From positions 10,180 through 74,179 of the forward strand of contig JAEDKA010000008.1 in assembly GCA_016296065.1 (NCBI GenBank): a DNA stretch of 64,000 nucleotides. The letters run 5' to 3'. Positions 11,365 to 50,861 of the stretch are shown here, one piece after another. This DNA comes from Kiritimatiellia bacterium (GTDB taxonomy: Bacteria; Verrucomicrobiota; Kiritimatiellia; RFP12; UBA1067). Positions within the stretch are counted from its first letter, which is position 1. Each line of letters begins with the position of its first letter. Below the pieces are notes generated by a model. That model did not search any database, was not told the origin of the DNA, and saw only the letters and a list, made by a program, of their open reading frames with translations. Position numbers and translations under genes: made by a program.

Positions 11365-11373
11365 ATTATACCA
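11365..11373 (-). promoter_or_regulatory. Extended -10 TGGTATAAT, 6 nt before the GH97 ATG 11358
   Basis: Read directly from the sequence. Confidence 0.6.
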
Positions 11374-16712: not shown

Positions 16713-16721
16713 ATTATACCA
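16713..16721 (-). promoter_or_regulatory. Extended -10 TGGTATAAT, 8 nt before the cysS ATG
   Basis: Read directly from the sequence. Confidence 0.6.
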
Positions 16722-17414: not shown

Positions 17415-18764
17415 TCACCCGAGCGCCTCCAAGATGCGCCTTCCCCATTCGCGGGCCTTGCCGAACTGAACAAGTGAGTAGCTTTCGTTCGGGGAATGGA
17501 TGCGGTCCTCGCTCTGCCCCCACCCAACGACGAGCGGAGCCGCGCCAGACGCCTCGCGAAGGACGGACAGCACCGGGATCGACGCACCATCCCACTGGAA
17601 AAGCGCCCCTCGGCCGTCCATCTCGCCCAACACGTCGGCGGCAAGGCGGAACACCGGCGAAGCGAGCGGAAGCCTGAAAGCCGGCGTACCCTGGTTCACC
17701 TCCTCGAACTCGAGCTTCATCCCCTTCGGACACCGATCCTCCAGATGCGTGCGAACCGCGGCAAATGCGCCGCGCGGAGACTGGCCCGGGACAAGGCGCA
17801 TCGACATCTTTGCCACTGCCTCGCTGGGAATCACCGTCTTCGCGCCCGGCCCGCCGTACCCGGAGTGGATTCCGTTCACCTCTATCGTCGGCTCGAACGA
17901 CGTGCGCTGCGCAAGAGTCTTGCCCATCTGTCCGCCGACGGGGTCGCATCCGATGTCCGCAGCACAGTCGGACTCCGACGGCGTGCTCGCCTCGGCCGCC
18001 GAAAGCTCCTCGTGAGTCGGCGGCTCGATCCCGTCGCGAAACCCCGCGACCGCGATCGACCCGTCCGGATGGTGCAGACTCGCGAGGAGCTCCGCAAGGC
18101 CCTGTGCAGGATTTGGCGAGACGCCGCCGTACTCCCCGGAGTGGAGGTCGCGGTTCGGACCCGTCAGGCGCAGCGTGAAATGCGCAACGCCGCGAAGCCC
18201 CGCGACGATCGCAGGGCGCATCCCTGGCGCAGCGGACGTGTCACACACGAGCATGACGTCCGCCGCGAGGCGCCGTCGCATCTCAGGCGCGAGAGCGGAA
18301 AGCGCCGCGCTGCCCGATTCCTCCTGTCCGTCGAGAACTATCTTGATGTTGAGCTTCGGACCTTCCCCGGCGAGATAGTCGCGCATTCCGCACAGGAACG
18401 CGAAAGTCTGCCCCTTGTCGTCGTTCGCCCCGCGGCAGTAAACGCGGCCGTCGACGAGCGTCGGCTCGAACGGAGGCGTCTTCCATTCAGAGACAGGGTC
18501 CGCAGGCTGCACGTCGTAGTGTCCGTACACCAGCGCCGTGGGCGCGCCCTCAGCGCCATCCCTCTGCGCAAAGACCACTGGCGGCGGCGGCGCCGAGCCA
18601 GGTTCCTGCCTAGGGTAGACGAGCTCGACGGAGAAGCCGAGCTTGCCAAGCCACTTCCTTAGCCAGGACGCGCACGAAACGCAGTCGCGAAGGTGCGCAG
18701 GGTCCGCTCCGACGGATTCGTAGCGGAGCAGTTCGAAATATTCCGCAAGGGCTTTGTCTTCCAT
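17415..18764 (-). CDS. M20-family metallopeptidase (dipeptidase/ArgE-DapE type)
   Basis: 449 aa. YGHYDVQP, GANDDKGQ, EESGS motifs typical of M20. Confidence 0.75.
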   Translation of the reverse strand: MEDKALAEYFELLRYESVGADPAHLRDCVSCASWLRKWLGKLGFSVELVYPRQEPGSAPPPPVVFAQRDGAEGAPTALVYGHYDVQPADPVSEWKTPPFEPTLVDGRVYCRGANDDKGQTFAFLCGMRDYLAGEGPKLNIKIVLDGQEESGSAALSALAPEMRRRLAADVMLVCDTSAAPGMRPAIVAGLRGVAHFTLRLTGPNRDLHSGEYGGVSPNPAQGLAELLASLHHPDGSIAVAGFRDGIEPPTHEELSAAEASTPSESDCAADIGCDPVGGQMGKTLAQRTSFEPTIEVNGIHSGYGGPGAKTVIPSEAVAKMSMRLVPGQSPRGAFAAVRTHLEDRCPKGMKLEFEEVNQGTPAFRLPLASPVFRLAADVLGEMDGRGALFQWDGASIPVLSVLREASGAAPLVVGWGQSEDRIHSPNESYSLVQFGKAREWGRRILEALG

Positions 18765-18800: not shown

Positions 18801-18809
18801 ATTATACCA
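18801..18809 (-). promoter_or_regulatory. Extended -10 TGGTATAAT, 36 nt before the M20 ATG (leader carries AAGGA)
   Basis: Read directly from the sequence. Confidence 0.5.
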
Positions 18810-18851: not shown

Positions 18852-19367
18852 TCAGATGCGCTCGACGTCGGACGGCGGTATCACGACCTCCACCGAGCTG
18901 CCGAGTATCTCCACGTTGAGATAGAGGAGCGCCCGGTCTCCGTCACGCTTGACGTAGCCTTCCGTTCCGCGCATCGGCCCCGTCGTGACCCGCACATGGT
19001 CGCCCTCGTGGTAGGTGCGCGACAGCACGCGCATCTCGGATGCAAGCGCGACGCCGCGCCTGAGCTGGCGGAGCTGGTGTATCGTCTCGCGCGGACGAGG
19101 GATCGGCAGCGTCCGCACTATGTAGTTCGTGCGCAGCATCTCGACGCGCTGGTCCGCGTTCATCCTGGCGAACACGTAGCCGGGGAAGAGCGGAAGCTCC
19201 CTTCTCACCTTGCGTCTCTGCACCTTGCGGACGACGGTCTTGGTCGGCAGGTGCCAGAAGCACCTGTACCTGCCGAGGTACCAGGCCACCTTCTTCTCGG
19301 CGCGCGGCTTCGTGTGGATCACATACCACCGCGGGACCGCGGGGTCAATCGTCTCCAAATCTTCCAT
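18852..19367 (-). CDS. NusG/RfaH-like specialised transcription antitermination factor paralog (NGN + KOW)
   Basis: WYVIHTKPRAEKKV...LFPGYVF (NGN) and GDHVRVTTGPMRGTEGYV (KOW). Start moved to MEDLE at 19367. The ORF-track N-terminal 63 aa is Arg-rich and overlaps the upstream gene. Confidence 0.75.
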   Translation of the reverse strand: MEDLETIDPAVPRWYVIHTKPRAEKKVAWYLGRYRCFWHLPTKTVVRKVQRRKVRRELPLFPGYVFARMNADQRVEMLRTNYIVRTLPIPRPRETIHQLRQLRRGVALASEMRVLSRTYHEGDHVRVTTGPMRGTEGYVKRDGDRALLYLNVEILGSSVEVVIPPSDVERI

Positions 19368-19372
19368 ATGCG

Positions 19373-20440
19373 TCACTTTGCGGCGCCGCGCTCCGGGAGA
19401 TTGAACTCGCAGAGGACGGTCGTGCCCGTCGGCACGGTCGACTTGATGTCGAACACGTCTGCGACGCGCTTGGAGTTGGAAAGCCCCATTCCGGCGCCGA
19501 AGCCCATGGAGCGTATCCAGTCGTTCGCGGTGGAGGTCCCGTCCCGTAGCGCCCACTCCACGTCCTTGATTCCAGGCCCCTTGTCCTTCGCTATGACCGT
19601 CGCCTTGTGGCTGTCGAGGATGAAGGTTATGGACCCCCCGAGGGAATGGATGCAGATGTTGATCTCCAGCTCATACGCGGCGACCGCTATGCGGCGGATG
19701 ATCTTCTTCTCGACCCCCGCGTCGCCCAGCATCTTCTTGATCGCGTTCGCAGCCTTGCCGGCGTTAGTGAGGTCGTTCCGCACGACTACGAACTGCCGCA
19801 TCGAGTAGTACGGCAGGACGGGCTCGCTCTTGCTCGACTCCTGGCCATGCTCCGCGCCCTGCTGTTCCGTCCCCGGCGCGCCCTCGAGCCTTGCGAGCTC
19901 ATTCGTGAGCTCGCGCATCAGCACTCGCGTGACGTCGCGCTGCGAGACAATGCCCACGAGATCGCGCTCCTTGTTCAGCACCGGGAAGCGCCCGAAGATG
20001 TAGTTCTCGAAGTACTTGAGCGCGAAGGCGAGCGGCATGTCCTCCTCCAGGACGACGAGGTTCGTCGCCATGTGCTTCTGGCACTGCTCGCCGATCCACC
20101 CGCCCTCGAGAGCGAGGATGATGTCGTTTATCGAGACGATTCCGAAGAGGCGCTTGCCCTCCACCACCGGGACGCCGGAGATGTGGTTGCGCTTCATCAG
20201 GTTCTGCGCGAAATGCATCGTGTCTGTCCTGACGACCGAGATGATGTCGTGGTCGCGCATGACGTCCTTCACGCGCAGGCGCTGCAGGAGCTCCATGATG
20301 ACGAGCGGCTCGCCCTGCCCGCCCGAGCCCGGCAGGCCCGGACCAGACACGCGCTTGACGTGCTTGCGCTCGTGCGCGGCCATAATCTGGTCGTCGCTGA
20401 GCTTCTCGCCGCCTGTCAGGATCGTCGGACGGTACTCCAT
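19373..20440 (-). CDS. CBS-pair + GHKL ATPase (RsbW-like anti-sigma-type Ser/Thr kinase) fusion
   Basis: Two CBS motifs (VKDVM...GVPVV; ...GRFPVL...GIVSQRDV). Followed by AAYELEINICIH, DKGPGI and GFGAGMGL boxes. Start MEYRP at 20440 overlaps the upstream stop (ATGA). Confidence 0.7.
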   Translation of the reverse strand: MEYRPTILTGGEKLSDDQIMAAHERKHVKRVSGPGLPGSGGQGEPLVIMELLQRLRVKDVMRDHDIISVVRTDTMHFAQNLMKRNHISGVPVVEGKRLFGIVSINDIILALEGGWIGEQCQKHMATNLVVLEEDMPLAFALKYFENYIFGRFPVLNKERDLVGIVSQRDVTRVLMRELTNELARLEGAPGTEQQGAEHGQESSKSEPVLPYYSMRQFVVVRNDLTNAGKAANAIKKMLGDAGVEKKIIRRIAVAAYELEINICIHSLGGSITFILDSHKATVIAKDKGPGIKDVEWALRDGTSTANDWIRSMGFGAGMGLSNSKRVADVFDIKSTVPTGTTVLCEFNLPERGAAK

Positions 20441-20778
20441 CAGCCCTCCTTGGCGAGGAAGTCGTGGATGCGCACGCAGCTTTCGTACTTCGAGAGCGGC
20501 GAACTCACGAGCGGAATGCCGAGAGTGTCCGCGACCTGGCACATCGTCTGCGGCAGCGGCTTCGCGTTGTGCACGACCACGCACATCGCGCCGACGATGT
20601 TCGCCGTGCGGATCGCCTGGTCGGACGCAAGGGACGTAAGCAGCAGGATGTCGTCGCCGTCGTTGAGCAGAACGTCGCTCATGAGGTCGTTCGCAACCAC
20701 AGTGCCGACCGTCCGGTCGGACTCCCCACCCGCGACGAGCGTGCCGTCAAGGGTCTTAACAATGTCAGTGATGTTCAT
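20440..20778 (-). CDS. Small DRTGG-domain protein
   Basis: 112 aa. NDLMSDVL...ILLLTSLASDQAIRTANIVGAMCVVV...GIPLVSS pattern. ATG is 9 nt downstream of TGCTATACT. Confidence 0.6.
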   Translation of the reverse strand: MNITDIVKTLDGTLVAGGESDRTVGTVVANDLMSDVLLNDGDDILLLTSLASDQAIRTANIVGAMCVVVHNAKPLPQTMCQVADTLGIPLVSSPLSKYESCVRIHDFLAKEG

Positions 20779-20787
20779 TTGGCGTAT

Positions 20788-20796
20788 AGTATAGCA
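20788..20796 (-). promoter_or_regulatory. Extended -10 TGCTATACT, 9 nt before the DRTGG ATG 20778
   Basis: Read directly from the sequence. Back-to-back with the plus-strand box at 20812-20820. Confidence 0.55.
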
Positions 20797-20811
20797 AAAA
20801 AAATCCGCATT

Positions 20812-20820
20812 TGCTATAAT
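20812..20820 (+). promoter_or_regulatory. Extended -10 TGCTATAAT, 7 nt before the PHP GTG 20828
   Basis: Read directly from the sequence. Confidence 0.55.
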
Positions 20821-20827
20821 AGGCGGC

Positions 20828-21589
20828 GTGAAGTTTGATTTACACATACACAGCTGCCTGTCGCCGTGCGCCAATCTGGAGATGGCGCCGTCGGAGATAG
20901 TGCGACAGGCGGTCGCGGCCGGGATGGACGGAATCGCCCTCACGGACCACCAGTCCGCACGCAATACCCCCGCGATCGCCGAATGCGCCAGGCGCGCCGG
21001 CCTCAAGTGCCTCTTCGGCATGGAGGTCCAGACCGCCGAGGAAGTCCATACCCTCGCCCTCTTCGACACCGTCGAGCAGGCGCTGGATATGACGGACTGG
21101 GTCTATGCCGCCATGCCCAAGCGCGTGAACGACCCAGAGACCTTCGGCGACCAGCCCGTCGTGACTTGGGACGACGACATCGTCGAGATGGAGTGGCGCA
21201 TCCTCGCGATGGGCTGCCGCCGCACGATACCCGAGACGGCGACGAAGGTGCACGAGCTGGGCGGACTCTTCATCGCCGCGCACGTCGACCGCAGAAACCA
21301 CTCAGTGCTGGGCACCCTCGGGACGATCCCGCGTCCGCTCGTCGACACGGAGATCCAGCCAGGCGGCGGACTCTTCTTCGACGCCGTCGAGCTCTCGCGC
21401 ACCGCCGACGAAACACTGTGGCTCCCGAAAGTCGAGGGCTACGCAGTGACGCGCTCATCCGATGCGCACAACATCGACGACGTAGCGCGCGTCTGGACCG
21501 AAGCCGACGGCGAATTCTCGGTCGCGGGACTCAAGGCCATCTTCGCCGCGAAGTCAACCCGCATCTCCCCCCGCCTGACAAGCTTTTAA
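20828..21589 (+). CDS. PHP-domain metal-dependent phosphoesterase
   Basis: MKFDLHIHSCLSPC..., ALTDH, AAHVDR, SDAH motifs. GTG start 7 nt downstream of TGCTATAAT. Confidence 0.75.
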   Translation: MKFDLHIHSCLSPCANLEMAPSEIVRQAVAAGMDGIALTDHQSARNTPAIAECARRAGLKCLFGMEVQTAEEVHTLALFDTVEQALDMTDWVYAAMPKRVNDPETFGDQPVVTWDDDIVEMEWRILAMGCRRTIPETATKVHELGGLFIAAHVDRRNHSVLGTLGTIPRPLVDTEIQPGGGLFFDAVELSRTADETLWLPKVEGYAVTRSSDAHNIDDVARVWTEADGEFSVAGLKAIFAAKSTRISPRLTSF

Positions 21590-21594
21590 TAAAT

Positions 21595-21652
21595 TCCAAA
21601 CCTCCAAACCTCCAAACTTCCAAACTTCCAACCCTCCAACCCTCCACCAACC
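21595..21652 (+). repeat. G-free tandem 8-mers (TCCAAACC x2, TCCAAACT x2, TCCAACCC x2, then TCCACCAACC) filling the PHP-DRTGG spacer up to the ATG
   Basis: Read directly from the sequence. Confidence 0.8.
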
Positions 21653-21988
21653 ATGACCTTCAACGAACTCAAAGACCGCGTCGGCGGCACAGTAGTCGTA
21701 GACAATCCCGAAGCAGCAATAAGCGCCGCCTACACCTCGGACCTTCTCTCCGACGTCATGGGACACTGCGGAGACGAATCGGTTCTCATAACGATCCAGA
21801 ACCACCTGAACGCAATAGCCGTCTGCACGCTCGCCGGAATCGAGGCGATCGTCCTCTGCCACGACAGGCCTGCCCCGGACGACATGATCGAGGCCGCGAA
21901 ACGCGAGGGCGTCGGCATAATGACGACTCCACTTTCCCAGTTCGAGGCATCCGTGAAGCTCGCCGACCTCGCTCCGGCAAAACGTTAA
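21653..21988 (+). CDS. Small DRTGG-domain protein (second copy)
   Basis: 111 aa. SDLLSDVMGH...VLITIQNHLNAIAVCTLAGIEAIVL...GVGIMTT, colinear with the 20440-20778 product. Confidence 0.6.
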   Translation: MTFNELKDRVGGTVVVDNPEAAISAAYTSDLLSDVMGHCGDESVLITIQNHLNAIAVCTLAGIEAIVLCHDRPAPDDMIEAAKREGVGIMTTPLSQFEASVKLADLAPAKR

Positions 21989-22017
21989 ACTGCAAGCAGG
22001 AGAATAGAAGGGCCTTC

Positions 22018-22061
22018 CGGGGACAGTCCCCGTGGTTTTCGGGGACAGTCCCCGTGGTCTT
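22018..22061. terminator. Tandem 22-bp units, each with hairpin GGGGAC-A-GTCCCC followed by GTGGTTTT / GTGGTCTT, between the convergent DRTGG and miaA genes. Likely bidirectional terminator.
   Basis: Read directly from the sequence. Confidence 0.5.
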
Positions 22062-22745
22062 TCAGAACGAAACGGACCAGGGGCCCTTGTCGCACCAGCA
22101 GCGGCGCACCGACTCAACCGTCGGCTCGACATAGAGCGGTGTCGCCTGGTGGCGGAACCACGTGTCCTGGCGCTTTGCAAGCTGGCACGTACGCGTAAGT
22201 ATCTTCGCGCGGTCGTCTCCCTCGCGGTAGCCTATGGCGAGCGAGGCCGTGCGAGACCACTCGGGATATTCAGCGTGAAGCGCACGCTTCTCCTCGTCAA
22301 GCCCTTCCATGAACATCCCGTCGAGCCTCGCGGCAATGCGCGCGCGCACGACCGCGCGGTCGATCTTGATCACAGGATACTCGGGCGGAGGCTTCTCCCA
22401 CCTGCGGTCGAGTCCACGAAGAAGCGCCGAAAAATACAACCCCGTTCCTCCCACGATGACGATCGGCACGTCTTGTGGAACTTTCGCCGCCCACTCTGCT
22501 GCCGCCCTTAGCCACGCACCTGACGAAAACTCCTCTGCCGGCGTCACTATGTCGACGCCGCCCATGTGGAACTCCTCGCGCTCCTCGCGCGGAGGCTTCG
22601 CCGTGCCGATGTCCATTCCGCGGTACACGAGCATGGAGTCCGCGCTCAGTATCCACGCGCCCATCTCGCGCGCGAGCTCGGCGGCGATCGCGCTCTTGCC
22701 GCTCGCGGTGGGGCCGGCTAGGATGTACGCTTCCCGAACGAGCAT
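22062..22745 (-). CDS. miaA: tRNA dimethylallyltransferase (short form)
   Basis: GPTASGKS P-loop and LSADSMLVYRGMDIGTAKP. Start moved to MLVREAY. Confidence 0.75.
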   Translation of the reverse strand: MLVREAYILAGPTASGKSAIAAELAREMGAWILSADSMLVYRGMDIGTAKPPREEREEFHMGGVDIVTPAEEFSSGAWLRAAAEWAAKVPQDVPIVIVGGTGLYFSALLRGLDRRWEKPPPEYPVIKIDRAVVRARIAARLDGMFMEGLDEEKRALHAEYPEWSRTASLAIGYREGDDRAKILTRTCQLAKRQDTWFRHQATPLYVEPTVESVRRCWCDKGPWSVSF

Positions 22746-23182
22746 AGGATCAGAATCCCCGCCGCGACTGTGATGAACGTATCGGCGAGGTTGAAGCACG
22801 GAAAGTGATATGCCGACTTCCAGTGGAAGTCGAGAAAGTCTATGACATATCCCCGGAACACTCGGTCGATCAGGTTGCCGACGATCCCCGCGTAGAGCAG
22901 CGCCTCGCAGACCGCGGCGCATTTGCCGCGCCCGAACACGGACTCGCGCTTCCACACGAGAAGCGCGAGCGCCACAATGGCGAACGCCGCGAGGGGCCAG
23001 ACCTGGCCCTGGAACATCCCCCACGCGCAGCCGCGGTTCTCGACATAGGCGAGATTGAAGAAGCCCGGAATCACGGAAACCGGACCGGACTCCTTCAGAT
23101 ACCCGGAGGCCAGTTCCTTCGAGACCGCATCCGCGAGGACGAGGTGCACGACGGCGACGAAGCAAAGCAGAAGCCGCTTCAT
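22718..23182 (-). CDS. lspA: Lipoprotein signal peptidase II
   Basis: NRGCAWG, GNLIDR, VIDFLDF, FNLAD motifs. ATG overlaps the upstream stop (ATGA). Confidence 0.9.
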   Translation of the reverse strand: MKRLLLCFVAVVHLVLADAVSKELASGYLKESGPVSVIPGFFNLAYVENRGCAWGMFQGQVWPLAAFAIVALALLVWKRESVFGRGKCAAVCEALLYAGIVGNLIDRVFRGYVIDFLDFHWKSAYHFPCFNLADTFITVAAGILILCSFGKRTS

Positions 23183-23967
23183 CAGCTGCGGGTACGCTCC
23201 ATCTCGCTCTGGCACTCCATGCACGTCATCACGAACGGCTGGTTCAGGAGTCGCGGCTTGCGGATGAGCTGGCCGCACGCCGTGCAGACGCCGTAAGTGC
23301 CGTCGTCGATGCGGTGAAGCGCCTCCTCGATCTGCTGAATCGTGCGGTTGATGTTGCCCATCTGGCCGAGAGCCTGCAGACGGAGCGTCTGGTTCGTGCC
23401 GTCGCCTCCGTCGGCCTCATAGTCGTCCGATTCGTTGAAACCCGTAGCCTTCATCGCGTCGACACCGCTGAGAGCCTCCTCGCGCGCCTCGAGAAGCCGC
23501 TTGCGGAACTCCTCGAGATCGGAAGCCGGAAACTTCGCAGTCGCCTCGCCCTGAACACGGGAAGTCGGCCTGCGAGTGAGCTTGATCTCGCTCTCGACGC
23601 GCTCCTGCTCAGCAGCCGCGGCCGAACGCTTCATCTCCTCGGCGATCGACATCGCGAAGGCCACGGCCTTTGCGGTTGCCTCCTCGGAGACAATATCATC
23701 CTGCGGCTTTACGACGGGCACGGGCTTGCGGCTGACATGCGGCGGGACGCGCTTGGCCTCGGCCTTCTTCGCAACCGGCTTCGCGGGCTCGGGCTTCTTG
23801 GCCGCGGGCTTCGCGACCGGCTTCGCAGACGCCGACTTTGCGGCGGGTTTCGCCGCAGGCTTCTTGGCGGCCGGCTTGGCGGGCGCAGGCTTCTTCGCCG
23901 GCGCCTTCTTGGGCGCGGGCTTCTTTGCGGACGTTTTCGTTGAAGGTTCTGCTATCGTGAATCCCAT
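23182..23967 (-). CDS. DksA/TraR-type C4 zinc-finger protein with N-terminal Lys/Ala/Pro-rich (histone H1-like) region
   Basis: C-terminal YGVCTACGQLI...MTCMECQ. N-terminal ~70 aa are KKPAPKKAPAKKPAPAKPAAKKPAAKPAAK... GAGGAGG SD upstream. Confidence 0.75.
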   Translation of the reverse strand: MGFTIAEPSTKTSAKKPAPKKAPAKKPAPAKPAAKKPAAKPAAKSASAKPVAKPAAKKPEPAKPVAKKAEAKRVPPHVSRKPVPVVKPQDDIVSEEATAKAVAFAMSIAEEMKRSAAAAEQERVESEIKLTRRPTSRVQGEATAKFPASDLEEFRKRLLEAREEALSGVDAMKATGFNESDDYEADGGDGTNQTLRLQALGQMGNINRTIQQIEEALHRIDDGTYGVCTACGQLIRKPRLLNQPFVMTCMECQSEMERTRS

Positions 23968-24017: not shown

Positions 24018-24026
24018 ATTATATCA
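24018..24026 (-). promoter_or_regulatory. Extended -10 TGATATAAT whose TGA is the greA stop codon. 50-nt leader with GAGGAGG SD before the dksA-like ATG.
   Basis: Read directly from the sequence. Confidence 0.5.
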
Positions 24027-26120
24027 TATCTGCATGCCGGGCGGAAGCTTCATCCACTCGCGAATTTCATCGGAGAGCGGACGTATCTCCTTGACCGACG
24101 CGAACTTGACCTCCCCGTCCTGGCCGGGAAGCTCGAACTGGTCGCCGACTTTCTTGCCGAGCATGTTCTCGGCGAGACGCGTCTTCGAGGAAAGGATGCC
24201 GCGATTGATGTCGTTGTCCCACTCGCCGAGCACAGAGTAGGTCTTGTCGCCCTCGGCGGTCGCGATCACGACGGTGACGCCGGGCATCACCTCGTCCGTC
24301 GTCGCGTCCGCGAAGTCGCCGGGCTTGACCGACTCCAGCTCCGCCTGCATGACAGTCTGCTTCTGCATGAGCGCGCGCTGCTCGTCCTTCGCGTACTGGT
24401 ACTCCGCGTTTTCGCTGAGGTCGCCGTAGCTCTTCGCGAACTCGATGCGCTTGACGTTCGCGGGCATGTCCTCGTTGATTAGCTTGAGGTACTCCTGCTT
24501 CTTCATCGCGAAGCTGCGGAACGACGTGACGCGCGCGTACTCCTTCTTCTTCTCGACGACGACGAGGTGCTTCGCCAGCGAGGGGACGATGTGCGTCATT
24601 CTCATGACGGTCGCGTGGTGCGTCGAGGGATCCCACGCGATGGACGCCTGGAAGCGCTCGAAGAAGAGCGTCTGGTCAGCCGGCGTGAGCAACTTGAAGA
24701 TCTTCTCCAGCCACGTCTTGTCGCCGAAGAGCCTGCGCACTATGTTCTGCATCTTGAGCGTCTCGCCACCCCGGCGTCCCTCGCCCAGCGCGATTGCGTG
24801 CGTGATGAGGGTCGACACGGGCGGAAGCTCGCTCCAGAGCTCGTACTTCTTGAGGACGCGAATCTTCTTTCCGTCGACCGGAACGTCCTCGTACTCGAAC
24901 TTGCCGAACTGCTCGATCTTGCCGATGATGAGCGTGACGAGCGTCGCCGGAGGCTGCGCGTCCTTCATGAAGTCGCCGATCGCCCTGCGGCAGGTCTCCT
25001 CCGCGCTGAAGCGCGAGACGATCTCCGCGACGGCCGCAAAGCACAGCTTCGGAATCGCCGCGTAAAGCTTGGCCTTCGCCTCGTCGTTCTCGGCGAGGAA
25101 GCCGATCATCGAGCCGACCTCGCGCGAGGGAAGCTCGGCGGCCGCCTTGACGAAGCGCGAACGCTCCCAGAGGTACTCGCGCATCTCAGACGCAGGCGGA
25201 TTCGCGAAGCCGAGCTCGCGCACGAGGCACGCGAGGCGCGCATACAGCGCGTCGTCGACCTTGCGCGCCGCCGTGACGGCGAACGAAAGGCGCTCGGAAA
25301 TCTTGGACTTGGTGGCCTCGTCTGCAACCTTGAACTTGCCCTGCGCGACGTACTCGCGAACGGCCGCGAGAATCGCCTTGGGGTCGGTCTCGTGCGCGAA
25401 CGCCGTGAGCCAGCCGTCGCCGTAGTCCTCGGCCGCGGCCCTGACGCGGATGGGCTCCGCGCGCTTGGCGGGGATCTCGACGAGCTTGTTGTGGCGAAGC
25501 TCCGCGCGCGCGGTGTCCCAGAACTTCTTCCAGTTGACCGCCTTGACGAAGCCGTTCTGCACGCAGACGTCCTCGAGACGGACGATCGGCATGTCGCCGA
25601 AGCTCTTGAGCACCGCGACGACGAATTCGCCAGGCTTGTCCTTGAGAAGCGCCTCGAATCCCGCGGGGTCGACCTCGCGCTTGACGAGGATGTGCCCGTC
25701 GGGAGCGGGCTCGAGCATGTCGCACGCCGCGGCGTACGCGAACTGGTGCCCCCTCTTTGTGCGGAAGTCAACCGTCACGCGCTTGTAGAAGTCGTCGACG
25801 CTCTTGACCTTGCCGAGGCCCCACGCCTTGCTGAGGACGAGCGCACCGGCCTCGCCGGGCTTCTTGGAGACGAGGTAAACGAGCTTCTCGAGCCTGACGA
25901 GCGACTCGTCGAGCGGACGCGCGCCGAATTCGGCCCCGTCCAGAAAAGAAAGAAGAAGGCGATCTTTGGTCGTCTTCTTCAATGCATCGCGTATCCCCGC
26001 CGGCTGAAGCTTCTTGCCAAGCTCCTCCTTGTTCTCGCGAACGAGGCGGAAGGCACCCTCGAAGTCGCCCTTCTCCGCGCATTCGCTAAGCTGTATTACC
26101 AACGATTCCGTATCGGCCAT
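24024..26120 (-). CDS. greA: Long-form GreA-family transcript cleavage factor (large N-terminal extension + C-terminal GreA module)
   Basis: 698 aa. Last ~160 aa carry GreA-like YGDLSENAEYQYAKDEQ and a C-terminal FKBP-like domain. AAGGAGAG SD upstream. Confidence 0.7.
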   Translation of the reverse strand: MADTESLVIQLSECAEKGDFEGAFRLVRENKEELGKKLQPAGIRDALKKTTKDRLLLSFLDGAEFGARPLDESLVRLEKLVYLVSKKPGEAGALVLSKAWGLGKVKSVDDFYKRVTVDFRTKRGHQFAYAAACDMLEPAPDGHILVKREVDPAGFEALLKDKPGEFVVAVLKSFGDMPIVRLEDVCVQNGFVKAVNWKKFWDTARAELRHNKLVEIPAKRAEPIRVRAAAEDYGDGWLTAFAHETDPKAILAAVREYVAQGKFKVADEATKSKISERLSFAVTAARKVDDALYARLACLVRELGFANPPASEMREYLWERSRFVKAAAELPSREVGSMIGFLAENDEAKAKLYAAIPKLCFAAVAEIVSRFSAEETCRRAIGDFMKDAQPPATLVTLIIGKIEQFGKFEYEDVPVDGKKIRVLKKYELWSELPPVSTLITHAIALGEGRRGGETLKMQNIVRRLFGDKTWLEKIFKLLTPADQTLFFERFQASIAWDPSTHHATVMRMTHIVPSLAKHLVVVEKKKEYARVTSFRSFAMKKQEYLKLINEDMPANVKRIEFAKSYGDLSENAEYQYAKDEQRALMQKQTVMQAELESVKPGDFADATTDEVMPGVTVVIATAEGDKTYSVLGEWDNDINRGILSSKTRLAENMLGKKVGDQFELPGQDGEVKFASVKEIRPLSDEIREWMKLPPGMQI

Positions 26121-33392: not shown

Positions 33393-33401
33393 ATTATACC
33401 A
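33393..33401 (-). promoter_or_regulatory. Extended -10 TGGTATAAT, 6 nt before the metF ATG
   Basis: Read directly from the sequence. Confidence 0.6.
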
Positions 33402-41081: not shown

Positions 41082-41090
41082 ATTATACCA
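41082..41090 (-). promoter_or_regulatory. Extended -10 TGGTATAAT, 7 nt before the dnaB ATG 41074
   Basis: Read directly from the sequence. Confidence 0.6.
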
Positions 41091-42181: not shown

Positions 42182-42190
42182 ATTATAGCA
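42182..42190 (-). promoter_or_regulatory. Extended -10 TGCTATAAT, 9 nt before the GH43 ATG 42172
   Basis: Read directly from the sequence. Confidence 0.6.
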
Positions 42191-50852: not shown

Positions 50853-50861
50853 AGTATATCA
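50853..50861 (-). promoter_or_regulatory. Extended -10 TGATATACT, 6 nt before the lyase ATG 50846
   Basis: Read directly from the sequence. Confidence 0.6.

What the first reader, a model, noticed from the sequence alone, without database searches (positions are those of the whole stretch)
18852..21988. Divergent PHP / DRTGG / CBS-GHKL kinase cluster wired to a NusG paralog: possible uncharacterised signalling-to-antitermination module
**Layout.** A 49-nt intergenic region carries back-to-back extended -10 boxes (20788-20796 minus, 20812-20820 plus).
- Minus arm:
  - a DRTGG protein (112 aa)
  - a CBS-pair + RsbW-like GHKL kinase joined to it by an ATGA overlap
  - a NusG/RfaH-like NGN-KOW paralog after a 5-nt gap
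- Plus arm: a PHP phosphoesterase, then a second DRTGG protein behind the G-free repeat leader.

**Background.** As far as I recall, small DRTGG proteins, an anti-sigma-type GHKL kinase and a PHP protein co-occur next to [FeFe]-hydrogenase/NuoEF-like operons in Firmicutes and Thermotogae. Their function there has not been established.

**What differs here.** No hydrogenase is in view, the kinase is fused to a CBS adenosyl-ligand sensor, and the downstream gene is a specialised antiterminator.

**Hypothesis.** This could be a partner-switching-like circuit with a kinase (GHKL), a phosphatase (PHP) and two DRTGG proteins as substrates or antagonists. It would report energy or nucleotide status to a NusG paralog that controls read-through of the long co-directional gene array. 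This is inference.
Basis: partly seen in the sequence, partly recalled or inferred. Interest (0 to 1): 0.7.

Follow-up and report, generated by a model that had tools for sequence, protein, structure and literature searches.

The report
Rearranged hydrogenase-linked kinase/phosphatase signalling cassette
This is a rearranged copy of a four-gene kinase/phosphatase signalling cassette of untested function that in most anaerobic bacteria sits beside hydrogen-producing enzyme genes; the NusG-type transcription factor next to it here is a local addition found only in this small gut lineage.

Summary
The five genes, their coordinates, their domains and the back-to-back extended -10 boxes are real.

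The core is four genes: DRTGG-like D1, a CBS-pair + SpoIIAB-type GHKL kinase, DRTGG-like D2 and a PHP phosphoesterase. This cassette is not peculiar to this genome.
- Eighty species-level loci from more than ten phyla carry D1>kinase>D2>PHP.
- 28 of the 43 loci with at least 6 kb on both sides also hold NuoE/NuoF/[FeFe]-hydrogenase genes.
- 13 loci have Rex directly upstream of D1.
- The CBS fusion is therefore the norm among these relatives, not a novelty.

Here the cassette is split into two divergent, apparently leaderless units. No hydrogenase gene lies in the 64 kb window.

The UpxY-like NusG paralog follows the kinase only in a shallow rumen/gut Kiritimatiellae clade.
- It is absent from all 80 species loci.
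- Its relatives at 58-61% identity sit in unrelated contexts.
- The next gene downstream has its own promoter.

A dedicated signalling-to-antitermination module is thus poorly supported; co-transcription is likely.

The most likely mechanism is inferred, not shown: an adenine-nucleotide-gated phospho-switch acting on a DRTGG partner, tied ancestrally to redox/H2 metabolism.

The parts
20440..20778 (-). D1: small DRTGG-fold protein (112 aa), first gene of the minus arm. Family-invariant residues are L32, S34, L37 and K73, within a DLMSDVL motif.
   Evidence: Pfam DRTGG 20 bits, end to end but below cutoff. AF2 pLDDT 90.5; Foldseek top hit 2IOJ, TM 0.82. Conservation. The D1 type is the one fused to GHKL in P0194, P0198 and P0252.
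19373..20440 (-). CBS-pair + SpoIIAB/RsbW-type GHKL (HATPase_c_2) kinase, 355 aa. It overlaps the D1 stop codon by 1 nt (TGATG) and has an AAGGAGG Shine-Dalgarno sequence.
   Evidence: Pfam CBS 82 bits and HATPase_c_2 28.3 bits. The N box (E258/E260/N262), G1 (D287, G289, G291) and G2 (GFGAGMGL) are invariant in 34 relatives. AF2 pLDDT 84.7; Foldseek top hit is SpoIIAB 1TIL, TM 0.84 normalised to the target length.
18852..19367 (-). UpxY/RfaH-like NusG paralog (171 aa), 5 nt after the kinase stop codon. It is the last gene of a three-gene unit.
   Evidence: Pfam NusG 53 bits. NCBIfam UpxY matches full length at 89 bits, below the cutoff of 100. The linkage is clade-restricted.
20779..20827 (.). 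49-nt divergent control region with back-to-back extended -10 boxes (20788-20796 minus, 20812-20820 plus), 15 nt apart. The -10 to start-codon distance is 9 nt for D1 and 7 nt for PHP, which implies leaderless transcripts.
   Evidence: Sequence read directly. Both boxes are conserved in L007, L008, L009, L089, L091 and L096. The motif is about 60-fold enriched in the window.
20828..21589 (+). PHP-family metal-dependent phosphoesterase (253 aa, GTG start) with an intact set of candidate metal ligands.
   Evidence: Pfam PHP 44.6 bits. H6, H8, D40, H41, E66, H74, H152, D212 and H214 are at least 95% conserved in 66 relatives.
21590..21652 (+). G-free leader of D2 with 6.5 tandem copies of TCCAAACC and no Shine-Dalgarno sequence.
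   Evidence: Tandem Repeats Finder. Relatives carry arrays of other A/C-rich 8-10 nt units, or none at all.
21653..21988 (+). D2: second DRTGG-fold protein (111 aa), a paralogue of D1. Invariant residues include Y27, D30, S33, T47, Q49, H51 and N53.
   Evidence: Pfam DRTGG 20.7 bits. hhalign D1 against D2 gives 99.8% probability. 23 of 24 relatives hit DRTGG. Conservation.
22014..22063 (.). Two tandem copies of a 22-nt unit, each holding a CGGGGACAGTCCCCG hairpin. This is a likely terminator pair closing the PHP-D2 unit, which converges on the next gene.
   Evidence: Terminator scan. Tandem Repeats Finder.
18801..18809 (-). Extended -10 box TGGTATAAT between the NusG paralog stop codon and the M20 peptidase start (ATG at 18764). 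It marks a separate promoter for the downstream genes.
   Evidence: Motif search. Sequence read directly.

Best explanation
**What it is (shown by comparison).** The locus is a lineage-specific rearrangement of a widespread four-gene signalling cassette made of two sub-modules:
- D1 (DRTGG fold) plus a CBS-pair/SpoIIAB-type GHKL kinase;
- D2 (DRTGG paralogue) plus a PHP phosphoesterase.

In most anaerobic phyla the gene order is D1>kinase>D2>PHP. The cassette is co-operonic with, or divergent from, the NuoE/NuoF/HydA electron-bifurcating [FeFe]-hydrogenase genes. It is often preceded by Rex.

**How it most likely works (inferred).**
- The CBS pair reads adenine-nucleotide or energy status.
- It gates the GHKL domain, which binds D1 and phosphorylates a DRTGG partner. 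D2 is the best candidate, because kinase>D2>PHP is the most conserved triad.
- The PHP enzyme reverses the modification.
- The output acts post-translationally on fermentative redox/H2 metabolism.

**What is special here.** In this rumen/gut Kiritimatiellae clade the cassette has been detached from the hydrogenase genes. It is split into two divergent, leaderless transcription units. It has also picked up a UpxY-like NusG paralog as the 3' gene of the D1-kinase unit. That paralog is probably just co-expressed, not a component of the cassette.
For: **Synteny** across 80 species-level loci.
- D2 is directly after the kinase in 66 of 79 loci.
- PHP is within 4.2 kb in 62 of 72 loci.
- D1 is directly upstream in 48 of 76 loci.
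- Hyd/Nuo genes are present in 28 of the 43 loci with at least 6 kb on both sides.
- Rex is directly upstream of D1 in 13 loci.
- Close relatives of the window's kinase still sit beside nuoE-fdx-nuoF-hydA (L001, 77% identity).

**Domain fusions.** D1-GHKL fusions and GHKL-2x[4Fe-4S]-Fe_hyd_lg_C-FeS fusions both exist.

**Kinase.** The ATP-binding motifs are invariant. Foldseek places the GHKL domain closest to SpoIIAB.

**PHP.** The candidate metal ligands are conserved.

**CBS pair.** It is structurally closest to nucleotide-binding CBS pairs such as AcuB and MJ0922.

**Literature.** A Halanaerobium hydrogenase operon lists PHP and anti-sigma Ser/Thr kinase genes (PMC4237134).

**NusG paralog is variable.**

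**Promoters.**
Against: - No phosphotransfer, binding or phenotype has been shown for any member of the cassette. None was found in the searched literature.
- The invariant Ser of the DL(M/L)SDV motif appears to line up with the 'AMS' stretch of canonical DRTGG domains. This is my own reading, two positions off the HMMER alignment as printed. If right, the Ser may be a fold feature and not a phospho-acceptor.
- No hydrogenase, NuoE/F or Rex gene lies in the 64 kb window. Many spirochaete loci also lack them. The output therefore need not be hydrogenase-specific.
- The HATPase_c_2 score is only just above the Pfam cutoff.
Confidence: 0.6

Rival explanations
1. **First reader's model.** The kinase/PHP/DRTGG circuit controls the NusG paralog, by phosphorylating it or by sequestering it as RsbW and SpoIIAB sequester sigma factors. 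In this way it would set antitermination of downstream genes.
For: - The gap between the kinase stop codon and the NusG start codon is 5 nt in the window and 2 nt in L007.
- The kinase lies directly upstream in 8 of 9 informative contigs that carry NusG relatives of 65-99% identity. The gene downstream of NusG varies among them: an M20 peptidase, LPS-type genes, or a convergent gene.
- SpoIIAB-type GHKL proteins are known binders of transcription proteins (established knowledge). Foldseek supports the fold assignment.
Against: - No NusG paralog is present in any of 80 species-level cassette loci.
- Kinase relatives at 85-88% identity lack it (L004, L008).
- NusG relatives at 58-61% identity follow rsmB, T3SS genes, a HEAT/hydrolase gene or a DAHP-synthase-like gene, with no kinase nearby.
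- The M20 gene downstream has its own extended -10 promoter, and the 'array' is general strand bias.
- The cassette is far older than this linkage.
Confidence: 0.12
2. **The DRTGG proteins are regulatory subunits, not substrates.** D1 together with the CBS pair, and D2 together with PHP, would rebuild in trans the nucleotide/Ap4A-binding CBS-DRTGG unit of CBS-pyrophosphatases. The kinase and the PHP enzyme would then act on a third party. That could be a hydrogenase subunit or a metabolic enzyme, or PHP could hydrolyse a nucleotide signal.
For: - D1's fold matches the DRTGG domain of the C. perfringens CBS-PPase regulatory region, solved with bound nucleotides (3L2B/3L31, TM about 0.7). A profile search also hits these entries.
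- D1 replaces the CBS pair at the N-terminus of GHKL in the fusion proteins.
- The conserved Ser appears to line up with the canonical AMS stretch (my reading, two positions off the printed alignment).
- The N-terminal 80 residues of the PHP protein resemble nucleotide phosphoesterases such as 3',5'-bisphosphate nucleotidase and RNase RNM.
Against: - SpoIIAB-type kinases characteristically phosphorylate a small, co-encoded partner protein.
- The kinase>D2>PHP triad mirrors the kinase/substrate/phosphatase logic of partner switching.
- No third-party substrate gene is conserved across the hydrogenase-less loci.
Confidence: 0.25
3. **No functional unit.** The five genes are neighbours by chance in a gene-dense, strand-biased chromosome.
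For: Gene density and strand bias are high throughout the window. The NusG adjacency itself may be of this kind.
Against: The four core genes stay together across more than ten phyla at 30-50% identity. Fusion proteins join D1 and GHKL. The divergent promoter region is conserved.
Confidence: 0.03

Closest known systems
Accessory genes of HydABC-type [FeFe]-hydrogenase operons (DRTGG protein, 'anti-sigma regulatory factor Ser/Thr kinase', PHP protein), for example Halanaerobium hydrogeniformans Halsa_1862-1871 (PMC4237134)
   Same: The same four protein families occur. The same sub-module pairing holds (D1 with the kinase, D2 with PHP). Relatives of the window's kinase at 34-49% identity (34-37% outside the Kiritimatiellia and spirochaetes) lie in D1>kinase>D2>PHP>nuoE>GHKL>fdx>nuoF>hydA operons.
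   Different: Here no hydrogenase, NuoE/F or Rex gene lies within 64 kb. The cassette is split into two divergent units, with PHP before D2. A NusG paralog is appended. In the Firmicute example the kinase is annotated without CBS, and hydrogenase-like Fe-S proteins sit between it and the PHP gene. The function of the cassette is untested anywhere.
Partner-switching modules: SpoIIAB-SpoIIAA-SpoIIE and RsbW-RsbV-RsbU/P
   Same: The GHKL domain is of the HATPase_c_2/SpoIIAB type (Foldseek TM 0.84 to 1TIL; NCBIfam spIIAB hit). The locus has the same kinase + small alpha/beta partner + phosphatase gene logic.
   Different: The small partners have a DRTGG fold, not STAS. The phosphatase is PHP, not PP2C. 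No sigma factor gene is linked. The kinase carries an N-terminal CBS pair. Phosphorylation has not been shown.
Regulatory insert of CBS-pyrophosphatases (CBS-DRTGG-CBS; PDB 3L2B/3L31)
   Same: CBS and DRTGG modules occur together. D1's model superposes on the PPase DRTGG domain (TM about 0.7). Adenine nucleotide/Ap4A sensing is established for that insert.
   Different: Here CBS and DRTGG are on separate polypeptides. The eponymous T-G-G-D-R stretch is replaced (D1: LTSLASDQ; D2: ITIQNHLN). The effector is a GHKL kinase rather than a DHH phosphoesterase.
Specialised NusG paralogs (UpxY of Bacteroides, RfaH, LoaP)
   Same: An NGN domain is present, and the protein matches the UpxY model over its full length (1-163 of 164, 89 bits).
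   Different: The score is below the UpxY cutoff of 100. The gene is the 3'-terminal gene of a signalling operon, not the 5' gene of a long polysaccharide or secondary-metabolite operon. The next gene has its own promoter. Relatives occur in many unrelated contexts.
HydS-type sensory [FeFe]-hydrogenase with Ser/Thr kinase and PP2C phosphatase (Ruminococcus albus; hfsABCD of Thermoanaerobacterium; PMC5707799, PMC11837493)
   Same: It is a kinase/phosphatase signalling system genetically tied to fermentative hydrogen metabolism. Some relatives of the window's GHKL domain are fused to a hydrogenase-like Fe-S module.
   Different: The component families differ: PAS-hydrogenase and a PP2C-type serine phosphatase there, against CBS, DRTGG and PHP here. 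No hydrogenase-like domain is present in the window.

Membership tests
HydABC-associated DRTGG/GHKL/PHP accessory cassette | Co-occurrence of a small DRTGG protein, a SpoIIAB-type GHKL kinase and a PHP phosphoesterase as neighbours | tested here: met
   All are present within 3.1 kb. The same set is conserved in 80 species loci.
HydABC-associated DRTGG/GHKL/PHP accessory cassette | Adjacency to nuoE/nuoF/hydA-type [FeFe]-hydrogenase genes | tested here: not met
   HMM and tblastn searches find no HydA, NuoE, NuoF, Rex or small GHKL in the 64 kb window. The feature is met in 28 of 43 well-flanked homologous loci and in the close relative L001.
Partner-switching module (RsbW/SpoIIAB type) | GHKL serine kinase of the HATPase_c_2/SpoIIAB family with intact ATP-binding motifs | tested here: met
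   HATPase_c_2 scores 28.3 bits against a cutoff of 27.4. The N, G1 and G2 boxes are invariant. The top structural match is SpoIIAB.
Partner-switching module (RsbW/SpoIIAB type) | STAS-domain antagonist or substrate (RsbV/SpoIIAA) | tested here: not met
   The small proteins have a DRTGG/HprK-N fold: 2IOJ at TM 0.82, and no STAS protein appears among the 50 Foldseek PDB matches listed. Pfam gives no STAS hit.
Partner-switching module (RsbW/SpoIIAB type) | PP2C (SpoIIE/RsbU) phosphatase | tested here: not met
   The linked hydrolase belongs to the PHP family, with conserved metal ligands.
Partner-switching module (RsbW/SpoIIAB type) | A sigma factor as the sequestered output | tested here: not met
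   None of the eight flanking or nearby genes I examined (six within about 3 kb, GreA-like and LpxI-like a little further out) is a sigma factor: NusG paralog, M20 peptidase, response regulator, MiaA, LspA, DksA-like, GreA-like, LpxI-like. The M20, response-regulator, DksA-like and GreA-like names rest; MiaA, LspA and LpxI-like are my reading of the translations, not a search.
Partner-switching module (RsbW/SpoIIAB type) | Reversible serine phosphorylation of the small partner | not testable with these tools
   Only conservation can be reported: S34 (D1) and S33 (D2) are invariant. They may, however, correspond to the canonical DRTGG 'AMS' stretch (my reading).
UpxY/RfaH-type specialised NusG paralog system | NGN + KOW architecture reaching the family threshold | tested here: inconclusive
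   The NGN domain scores 53 bits. The UpxY model matches full length, but at 89 bits against a cutoff of 100. RfaH scores 53 bits against 144.5. Pfam gives no separate KOW hit at E <= 0.01.
UpxY/RfaH-type specialised NusG paralog system | For the cis-acting members (UpxY, LoaP): the gene heads the long operon it regulates | tested here: not met
   It is the third and last gene after D1 and the kinase. An extended -10 promoter lies between it and the next gene. Downstream genes differ among relatives, and in L091 the next gene is convergent.
UpxY/RfaH-type specialised NusG paralog system | A recruitment element (ops-like or 5'-UTR) in the target operon | not tested
   No consensus is known for this lineage, so no search was attempted.
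DRTGG domain (PF07085) | Pfam gathering threshold and the conserved T-G-G-D-R stretch | tested here: inconclusive
   The window proteins score 20 and 20.7 bits against 25.2 and lack the GGDR stretch. The fold, the profile comparisons and the relatives all place them in the family.

The most novel reading that the evidence does not exclude
The D1/CBS-GHKL/D2/PHP cassette is a widespread and so far uncharacterised partner-switching-like phospho-relay of anaerobes. It would use DRTGG-fold proteins in place of STAS and a PHP enzyme in place of PP2C. It would couple adenine-nucleotide (energy) status to control of electron-bifurcating hydrogenase and fermentative redox flux. In this Kiritimatiellae clade its output, or at least its expression, would have been re-coupled to a trans-acting NusG paralog.
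Probability: 0.3. Interest if true: 0.75.

Novelty: new variant of a known kind. Interest (0 to 1): 0.45.

Why it matters
Electron-bifurcating HydABC hydrogenases set the H2 and redox balance of fermenters in guts, sediments and digesters. How their activity is regulated is largely unknown.

This survey shows that a defined four-gene kinase/phosphatase cassette accompanies them in more than ten phyla. In 13 of the 80 species loci surveyed Rex, a redox-sensing transcription regulator, lies directly upstream of it. The cassette also exists as a free-standing module, as here and in spirochaetes.

That gives a concrete and testable candidate for post-translational, energy-charge-dependent control of hydrogen metabolism. 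Cultured carriers are available for experiments, for example Breznakiella homolactica RmG30 and Sphaerochaeta species.

The specific claim that made the finding look exciting, a dedicated link to antitermination, is mostly not borne out.

Tried and rejected
- **Anti-phage defence system.** PADLOC gave no hits for any of the five proteins. Rejected.
- **Rex control of the divergent promoter.** No Rex operator (TTGTGAANNNNTTCACAA, up to 3 mismatches) occurs anywhere in the window, and no rex gene is present.
- **Hidden hydrogenase in the window.** HMM and tblastn searches with HydA, NuoE, NuoF, the small GHKL protein and a HAD phosphatase found nothing.
- **hfsABCD/HydS system as the same thing.** The papers describe a PAS-hydrogenase with a serine phosphatase, which are different families. 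It is a related theme, not the same cassette.
- **Literature on the cassette itself.** Searches for DRTGG + hydrogenase, DRTGG domain, PHP + CBS + hydrogenase + kinase, and HydABC + anti-sigma found only operon listings and no functional study.
- **Invariant Ser of DL(M/L)SDV as proof of a phosphosite.** Weakened, because it appears to line up with the canonical DRTGG 'AMS' stretch of AF1212. This is my reading, two positions off the printed alignment.
- **Complex prediction (kinase-D1, kinase-NusG).** Not possible: only single chains can be modelled and coordinates are not returned.
- **Intrinsic terminator after the NusG paralog.** None was detected by the simple scan, so read-through into the M20 gene cannot be excluded.

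Full report
**1. Observation**

The region holds five tightly packed genes.

Minus strand:
- D1, 20440-20778, 112 aa.
- CBS-GHKL kinase, 19373-20440, 355 aa.
- NusG paralog, 18852-19367, 171 aa.

Plus strand:
- PHP protein, 20828-21589, GTG start, 253 aa.
- D2, 21653-21988, 111 aa.

The D1/kinase junction is TGATG, a 1-nt overlap (stop 20442-20440, ATG 20440-20438). It is not an ATGA overlap. An AAGGAGG Shine-Dalgarno sequence precedes the kinase start.

Pfam supports NusG/NGN (53 bits), two CBS domains (82 bits), HATPase_c_2 (28.3 bits against a cutoff of 27.4) and PHP (44.6 bits). The two small proteins match DRTGG end to end but below threshold, at 20 and 20.7 bits against 25.2.

I therefore tested the DRTGG fold separately.
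- An AF2 model of D1, built on 33 sequences, has pLDDT 90.5.
- Its best PDB matches are AF1212, annotated 'Pfam DRTGG' (2IOJ, TM 0.82), the DRTGG domain of C. perfringens CBS-pyrophosphatase (3L2B/3L31) and the N-domain of HprK/P.
- D1 and D2 family profiles match each other at 99.8% hhalign probability.
- All 120 listed D1 relatives carry PF07085.
- 23 of 24 D2 relatives hit DRTGG.

The kinase model has pLDDT 84.7, with two well-folded domains joined by a disordered linker. Its best overall PDB match is SpoIIAB bound to SpoIIAA (1TIL; TM 0.84 normalised to the SpoIIAB chain, so this covers the GHKL domain only). The CBS half matches nucleotide-binding CBS pairs such as MJ0922 and AcuB. The N box, G1 and G2 ATP-binding motifs are invariant in 34 diverse relatives. 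The PHP family keeps H6, H8, D40, H41, E66, H74, H152, D212 and H214 at 95% or more in 66 relatives. Both enzymes therefore look catalytically competent.

**2. Control region**

- TGNTATAMT occurs 16 times in the window against 0.27 expected, and no shuffle gave more than 2 matches.
- Fifteen of the 16 lie on the gene-rich minus strand.
- In six related loci the two boxes (ATTATAGCA-N15-TGnTATACT) are kept while the flanking bases change.

The distance from the -10 box to the start codon is 7-9 nt on both arms, which implies leaderless mRNAs. Several other genes in the window show the same geometry. This is therefore the house style of the genome, not a special property of the locus.

A further TGGTATAAT box at 18801-18809 lies between the NusG paralog and the M20 peptidase gene. 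A pair of tandem hairpins at 22014-22063 closes the PHP-D2 unit.

The transcription map is thus two short divergent units: D1-kinase-NusG and PHP-D2.

**3. What it is: comparative evidence**

A library-wide HMMER search with the kinase returned four kinds of relative:
- CBS-GHKL proteins at 30-66% identity;
- stand-alone GHKL proteins of about 140 aa;
- D1-type DRTGG-GHKL fusions (P0194, P0198, P0252);
- fusions of GHKL with two [4Fe-4S] clusters, Fe_hyd_lg_C and an FeS domain.

A scan of GTDB species genomes with a 34-sequence alignment returned 80 loci. They come from Kiritimatiellia, Lentisphaerae, Spirochaetota, Anaerolineae/Chloroflexota, Nitrospirota, Cloacimonadota, Atribacterota, Planctomycetota, Verrucomicrobiota, Melioribacter, Fidelibacterota and Desulfobacterota-type MAGs.

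I labelled ORFs in these loci with HMMs built from the window's proteins and from a hydrogenase operon found next to a close relative. The canonical order is D1>kinase>D2>PHP>nuoE>(small GHKL)>2Fe-2S ferredoxin>nuoF>hydA.

Counts:
- D2 directly after the kinase: 66 of 79 loci.
- PHP within 4.2 kb: 62 of 72 loci.
- D1 directly upstream: 48 of 76 loci.
- Hyd/Nuo genes present: 28 of the 43 loci with at least 6 kb on both sides.

Clustering the unlabelled neighbours added two families:
- a Rex-type regulator (Put_DNA-bind_N + CoA_binding) directly upstream of D1 in 13 loci;
- a small HATPase_c protein inside the hydrogenase operon.

Other Kiritimatiellia have the hydrogenase operon divergent from Rex>D1>kinase>D2>PHP. 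A 77%-identical relative of the window's kinase sits right after nuoE-fdx-nuoF-hydA-secG-pgpA (L001).

Spirochaetes usually carry kinase>D2>PHP without any hydrogenase. In the cultured Breznakiella homolactica a Cof-type HAD phosphatase lies between D1 and the kinase.

A published operon description for Halanaerobium hydrogeniformans lists the PHP gene, the anti-sigma Ser/Thr kinase gene and an unidentified ORF alongside hydA, nuoF and nuoE (PMC4237134). I found no functional study of these accessory genes.

The window itself holds no HydA, NuoE, NuoF, Rex or small GHKL.

**4. The NusG paralog**

It is UpxY-like: the NCBIfam UpxY model matches full length at 89 bits, against a cutoff of 100.

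Searches centred on the kinase:
- The paralog appears only in the window and in L007 (88% kinase identity).
- It is absent from L004 (88%), L008 (85%), L001/L002 (77%), L009 and L010.
- It is absent from all 80 species loci.

Searches centred on the NusG paralog:
- Contigs with relatives of 65-99% identity keep the kinase directly upstream in 8 of 9 informative cases.
- The gene downstream of NusG varies among them: an M20 peptidase; PglD/KdtA-like LPS genes; or a convergent 1036-aa gene.
- At 58-61% identity the paralog sits elsewhere. It follows rsmB and precedes proC; or precedes a GT4 glycosyltransferase; or lies between T3SS export genes and phosphonate genes; or follows a DAHP-synthase-like gene.

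The linkage is therefore real but shallow. It is best read as one of many chromosomal positions of a mobile, probably trans-acting paralog, giving co-transcription in this clade.

The 'long co-directional array' is general strand bias. Thirty-three of 37 ORFs that pass a codon-position G+C filter (a crude coding test) are on the minus strand, and GC skew is negative in most 2-kb blocks, with cumulative skew falling across the window. The array is also punctuated by promoters.

**5. Mechanism (inferred)**

The gene-order data define two sub-modules.
- D1 + kinase: translationally coupled here, and fused in some genomes.
- D2 + PHP: adjacent in nearly all loci.

Kinase>D2>PHP is the most conserved triad. 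This matches the kinase/substrate/phosphatase logic of SpoIIAB-SpoIIAA-SpoIIE, but with a DRTGG fold in place of STAS and PHP in place of PP2C. PHP enzymes acting as protein phosphatases have precedent in CpsB/YwqE (my own knowledge).

The CBS pair has the G-h-h-S-x-x-D ribose-binding signature in both repeats (GIVSIND and GIVSQRD). It is structurally closest to AMP/ADP/ATP/Ap4A-binding CBS pairs.

My best reading is an adenine-nucleotide-gated phospho-switch on a DRTGG partner, with D1 as a kinase-bound regulator.

The main rival is that D1 and D2 are nucleotide-sensing regulatory subunits, as in the CBS-DRTGG insert of CBS-pyrophosphatases, and that the true substrate lies elsewhere. Two observations support it. 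The invariant Ser (D1 S34, D2 S33) appears to line up with the 'AMS' stretch of canonical DRTGG domains; this is my reading, two positions off the alignment as printed. And D1 replaces the CBS pair in the fusion proteins.

**6. Verdict**

- The kinase/phosphatase/DRTGG circuit idea stands as a hypothesis.
- The recalled hydrogenase background is the actual explanation of the locus.
- The features held to be distinctive are not. The CBS fusion is the norm, and the wiring to NusG antitermination is at most clade-local.

This is a new variant of an annotated but uncharacterised cassette: split, divergent, detached from the hydrogenase genes, and carrying an extra NusG paralog. Interest is moderate. 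It comes mainly from the cassette's breadth and its unexplained link to bifurcating hydrogenases, not from the NusG link.

Noticed in passing
whole window; e.g. 11365-11373, 16713-16721, 33393-33401, 41082-41090, 42182-42190, 50853-50861 (all minus strand): The extended -10 motif TGNTATAMT occurs 16 times against 0.27 expected. Many copies lie only 6-10 nt upstream of a start codon. Leaderless transcription from -35-less extended -10 promoters therefore looks genome-typical for this Kiritimatiellae lineage, and includes GTG-initiated leaderless genes.
   Followed up: partly
window 21590-21652; L089 1619-1683; L096 3186-3258; L090 3646-3725; L009 2139-2207: The PHP-D2 spacer carries tandem arrays of A/C-rich 8-10 nt units. 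The unit sequence and copy number differ between close relatives: TCCAAACC here, ACTAACGA-type units in L089/L096, others in L090/L009, and none in L007/L008/L002. There is no Shine-Dalgarno sequence before D2, although the kinase gene has AAGGAGG. This could be an unstructured translation-enhancing leader or a slippage-prone tuning element.
   Followed up: partly
window 22014-22063: A 22-nt unit is repeated 2.2 times. Each copy holds the hairpin CGGGGACAGTCCCCG, and the array lies between the convergent D2 gene and the next gene, which looks MiaA-like by eye.
   Followed up: no
L012, L013, L023, L025, L028, L029, L030, L040, L041, L045, L051, L055, L065 (just upstream of D1): A Rex-type redox-sensing regulator gene (Put_DNA-bind_N + CoA_binding) lies directly upstream of D1 in 13 species loci. 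In the Kiritimatiellia and related loci among them, where the hydABC operon is divergent, it lies between that operon and the cassette.
   Followed up: partly
proteins P0203, P0224, P0260, P0226, P0245, P0261: Relatives of the window's GHKL domain are fused C-terminally to two [4Fe-4S] clusters, a partial [FeFe]-hydrogenase large-subunit domain and a PF04060 FeS domain. This amounts to a kinase with a hydrogenase-like sensor in place of the CBS pair.
   Followed up: partly
window 20828-21589 (PHP), residues 12-14: After the HxH motif this PHP subfamily has a conserved S-P-C (S12 100%, C14 98% of 66 sequences). From memory, many PHP enzymes have S-D-G or a His metal ligand at this position. This suggests an altered metal site.
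   Followed up: no
L015 7099-7929; L019 7075-7962 and six other loci in the same cluster (identities not listed): In spirochaetes a Cof-type HAD phosphatase (Hydrolase_3) is inserted directly upstream of the CBS-GHKL kinase. In L015 and L017 it sits between D1 and the kinase.
   Followed up: partly
window 23182-23967 and 24024-26120 (minus strand): Two unusual transcription-factor genes lie just beyond the cluster. One is a DksA/TraR zinc-finger protein with a long Lys/Ala/Pro-rich, histone-H1/Hc2-like N-terminal tail. The other is a 698-aa protein whose C-terminal 150 residues are GreA-like.
   Followed up: no
L009 1200-1739; L093 3024-3566: The small HATPase_c-only protein of about 180 aa, typical of hydrogenase operons, also occurs in rumen Kiritimatiellae relatives with no hydrogenase gene among those labelled on the fetched stretch. 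In L009 it is convergent with D2.
   Followed up: no
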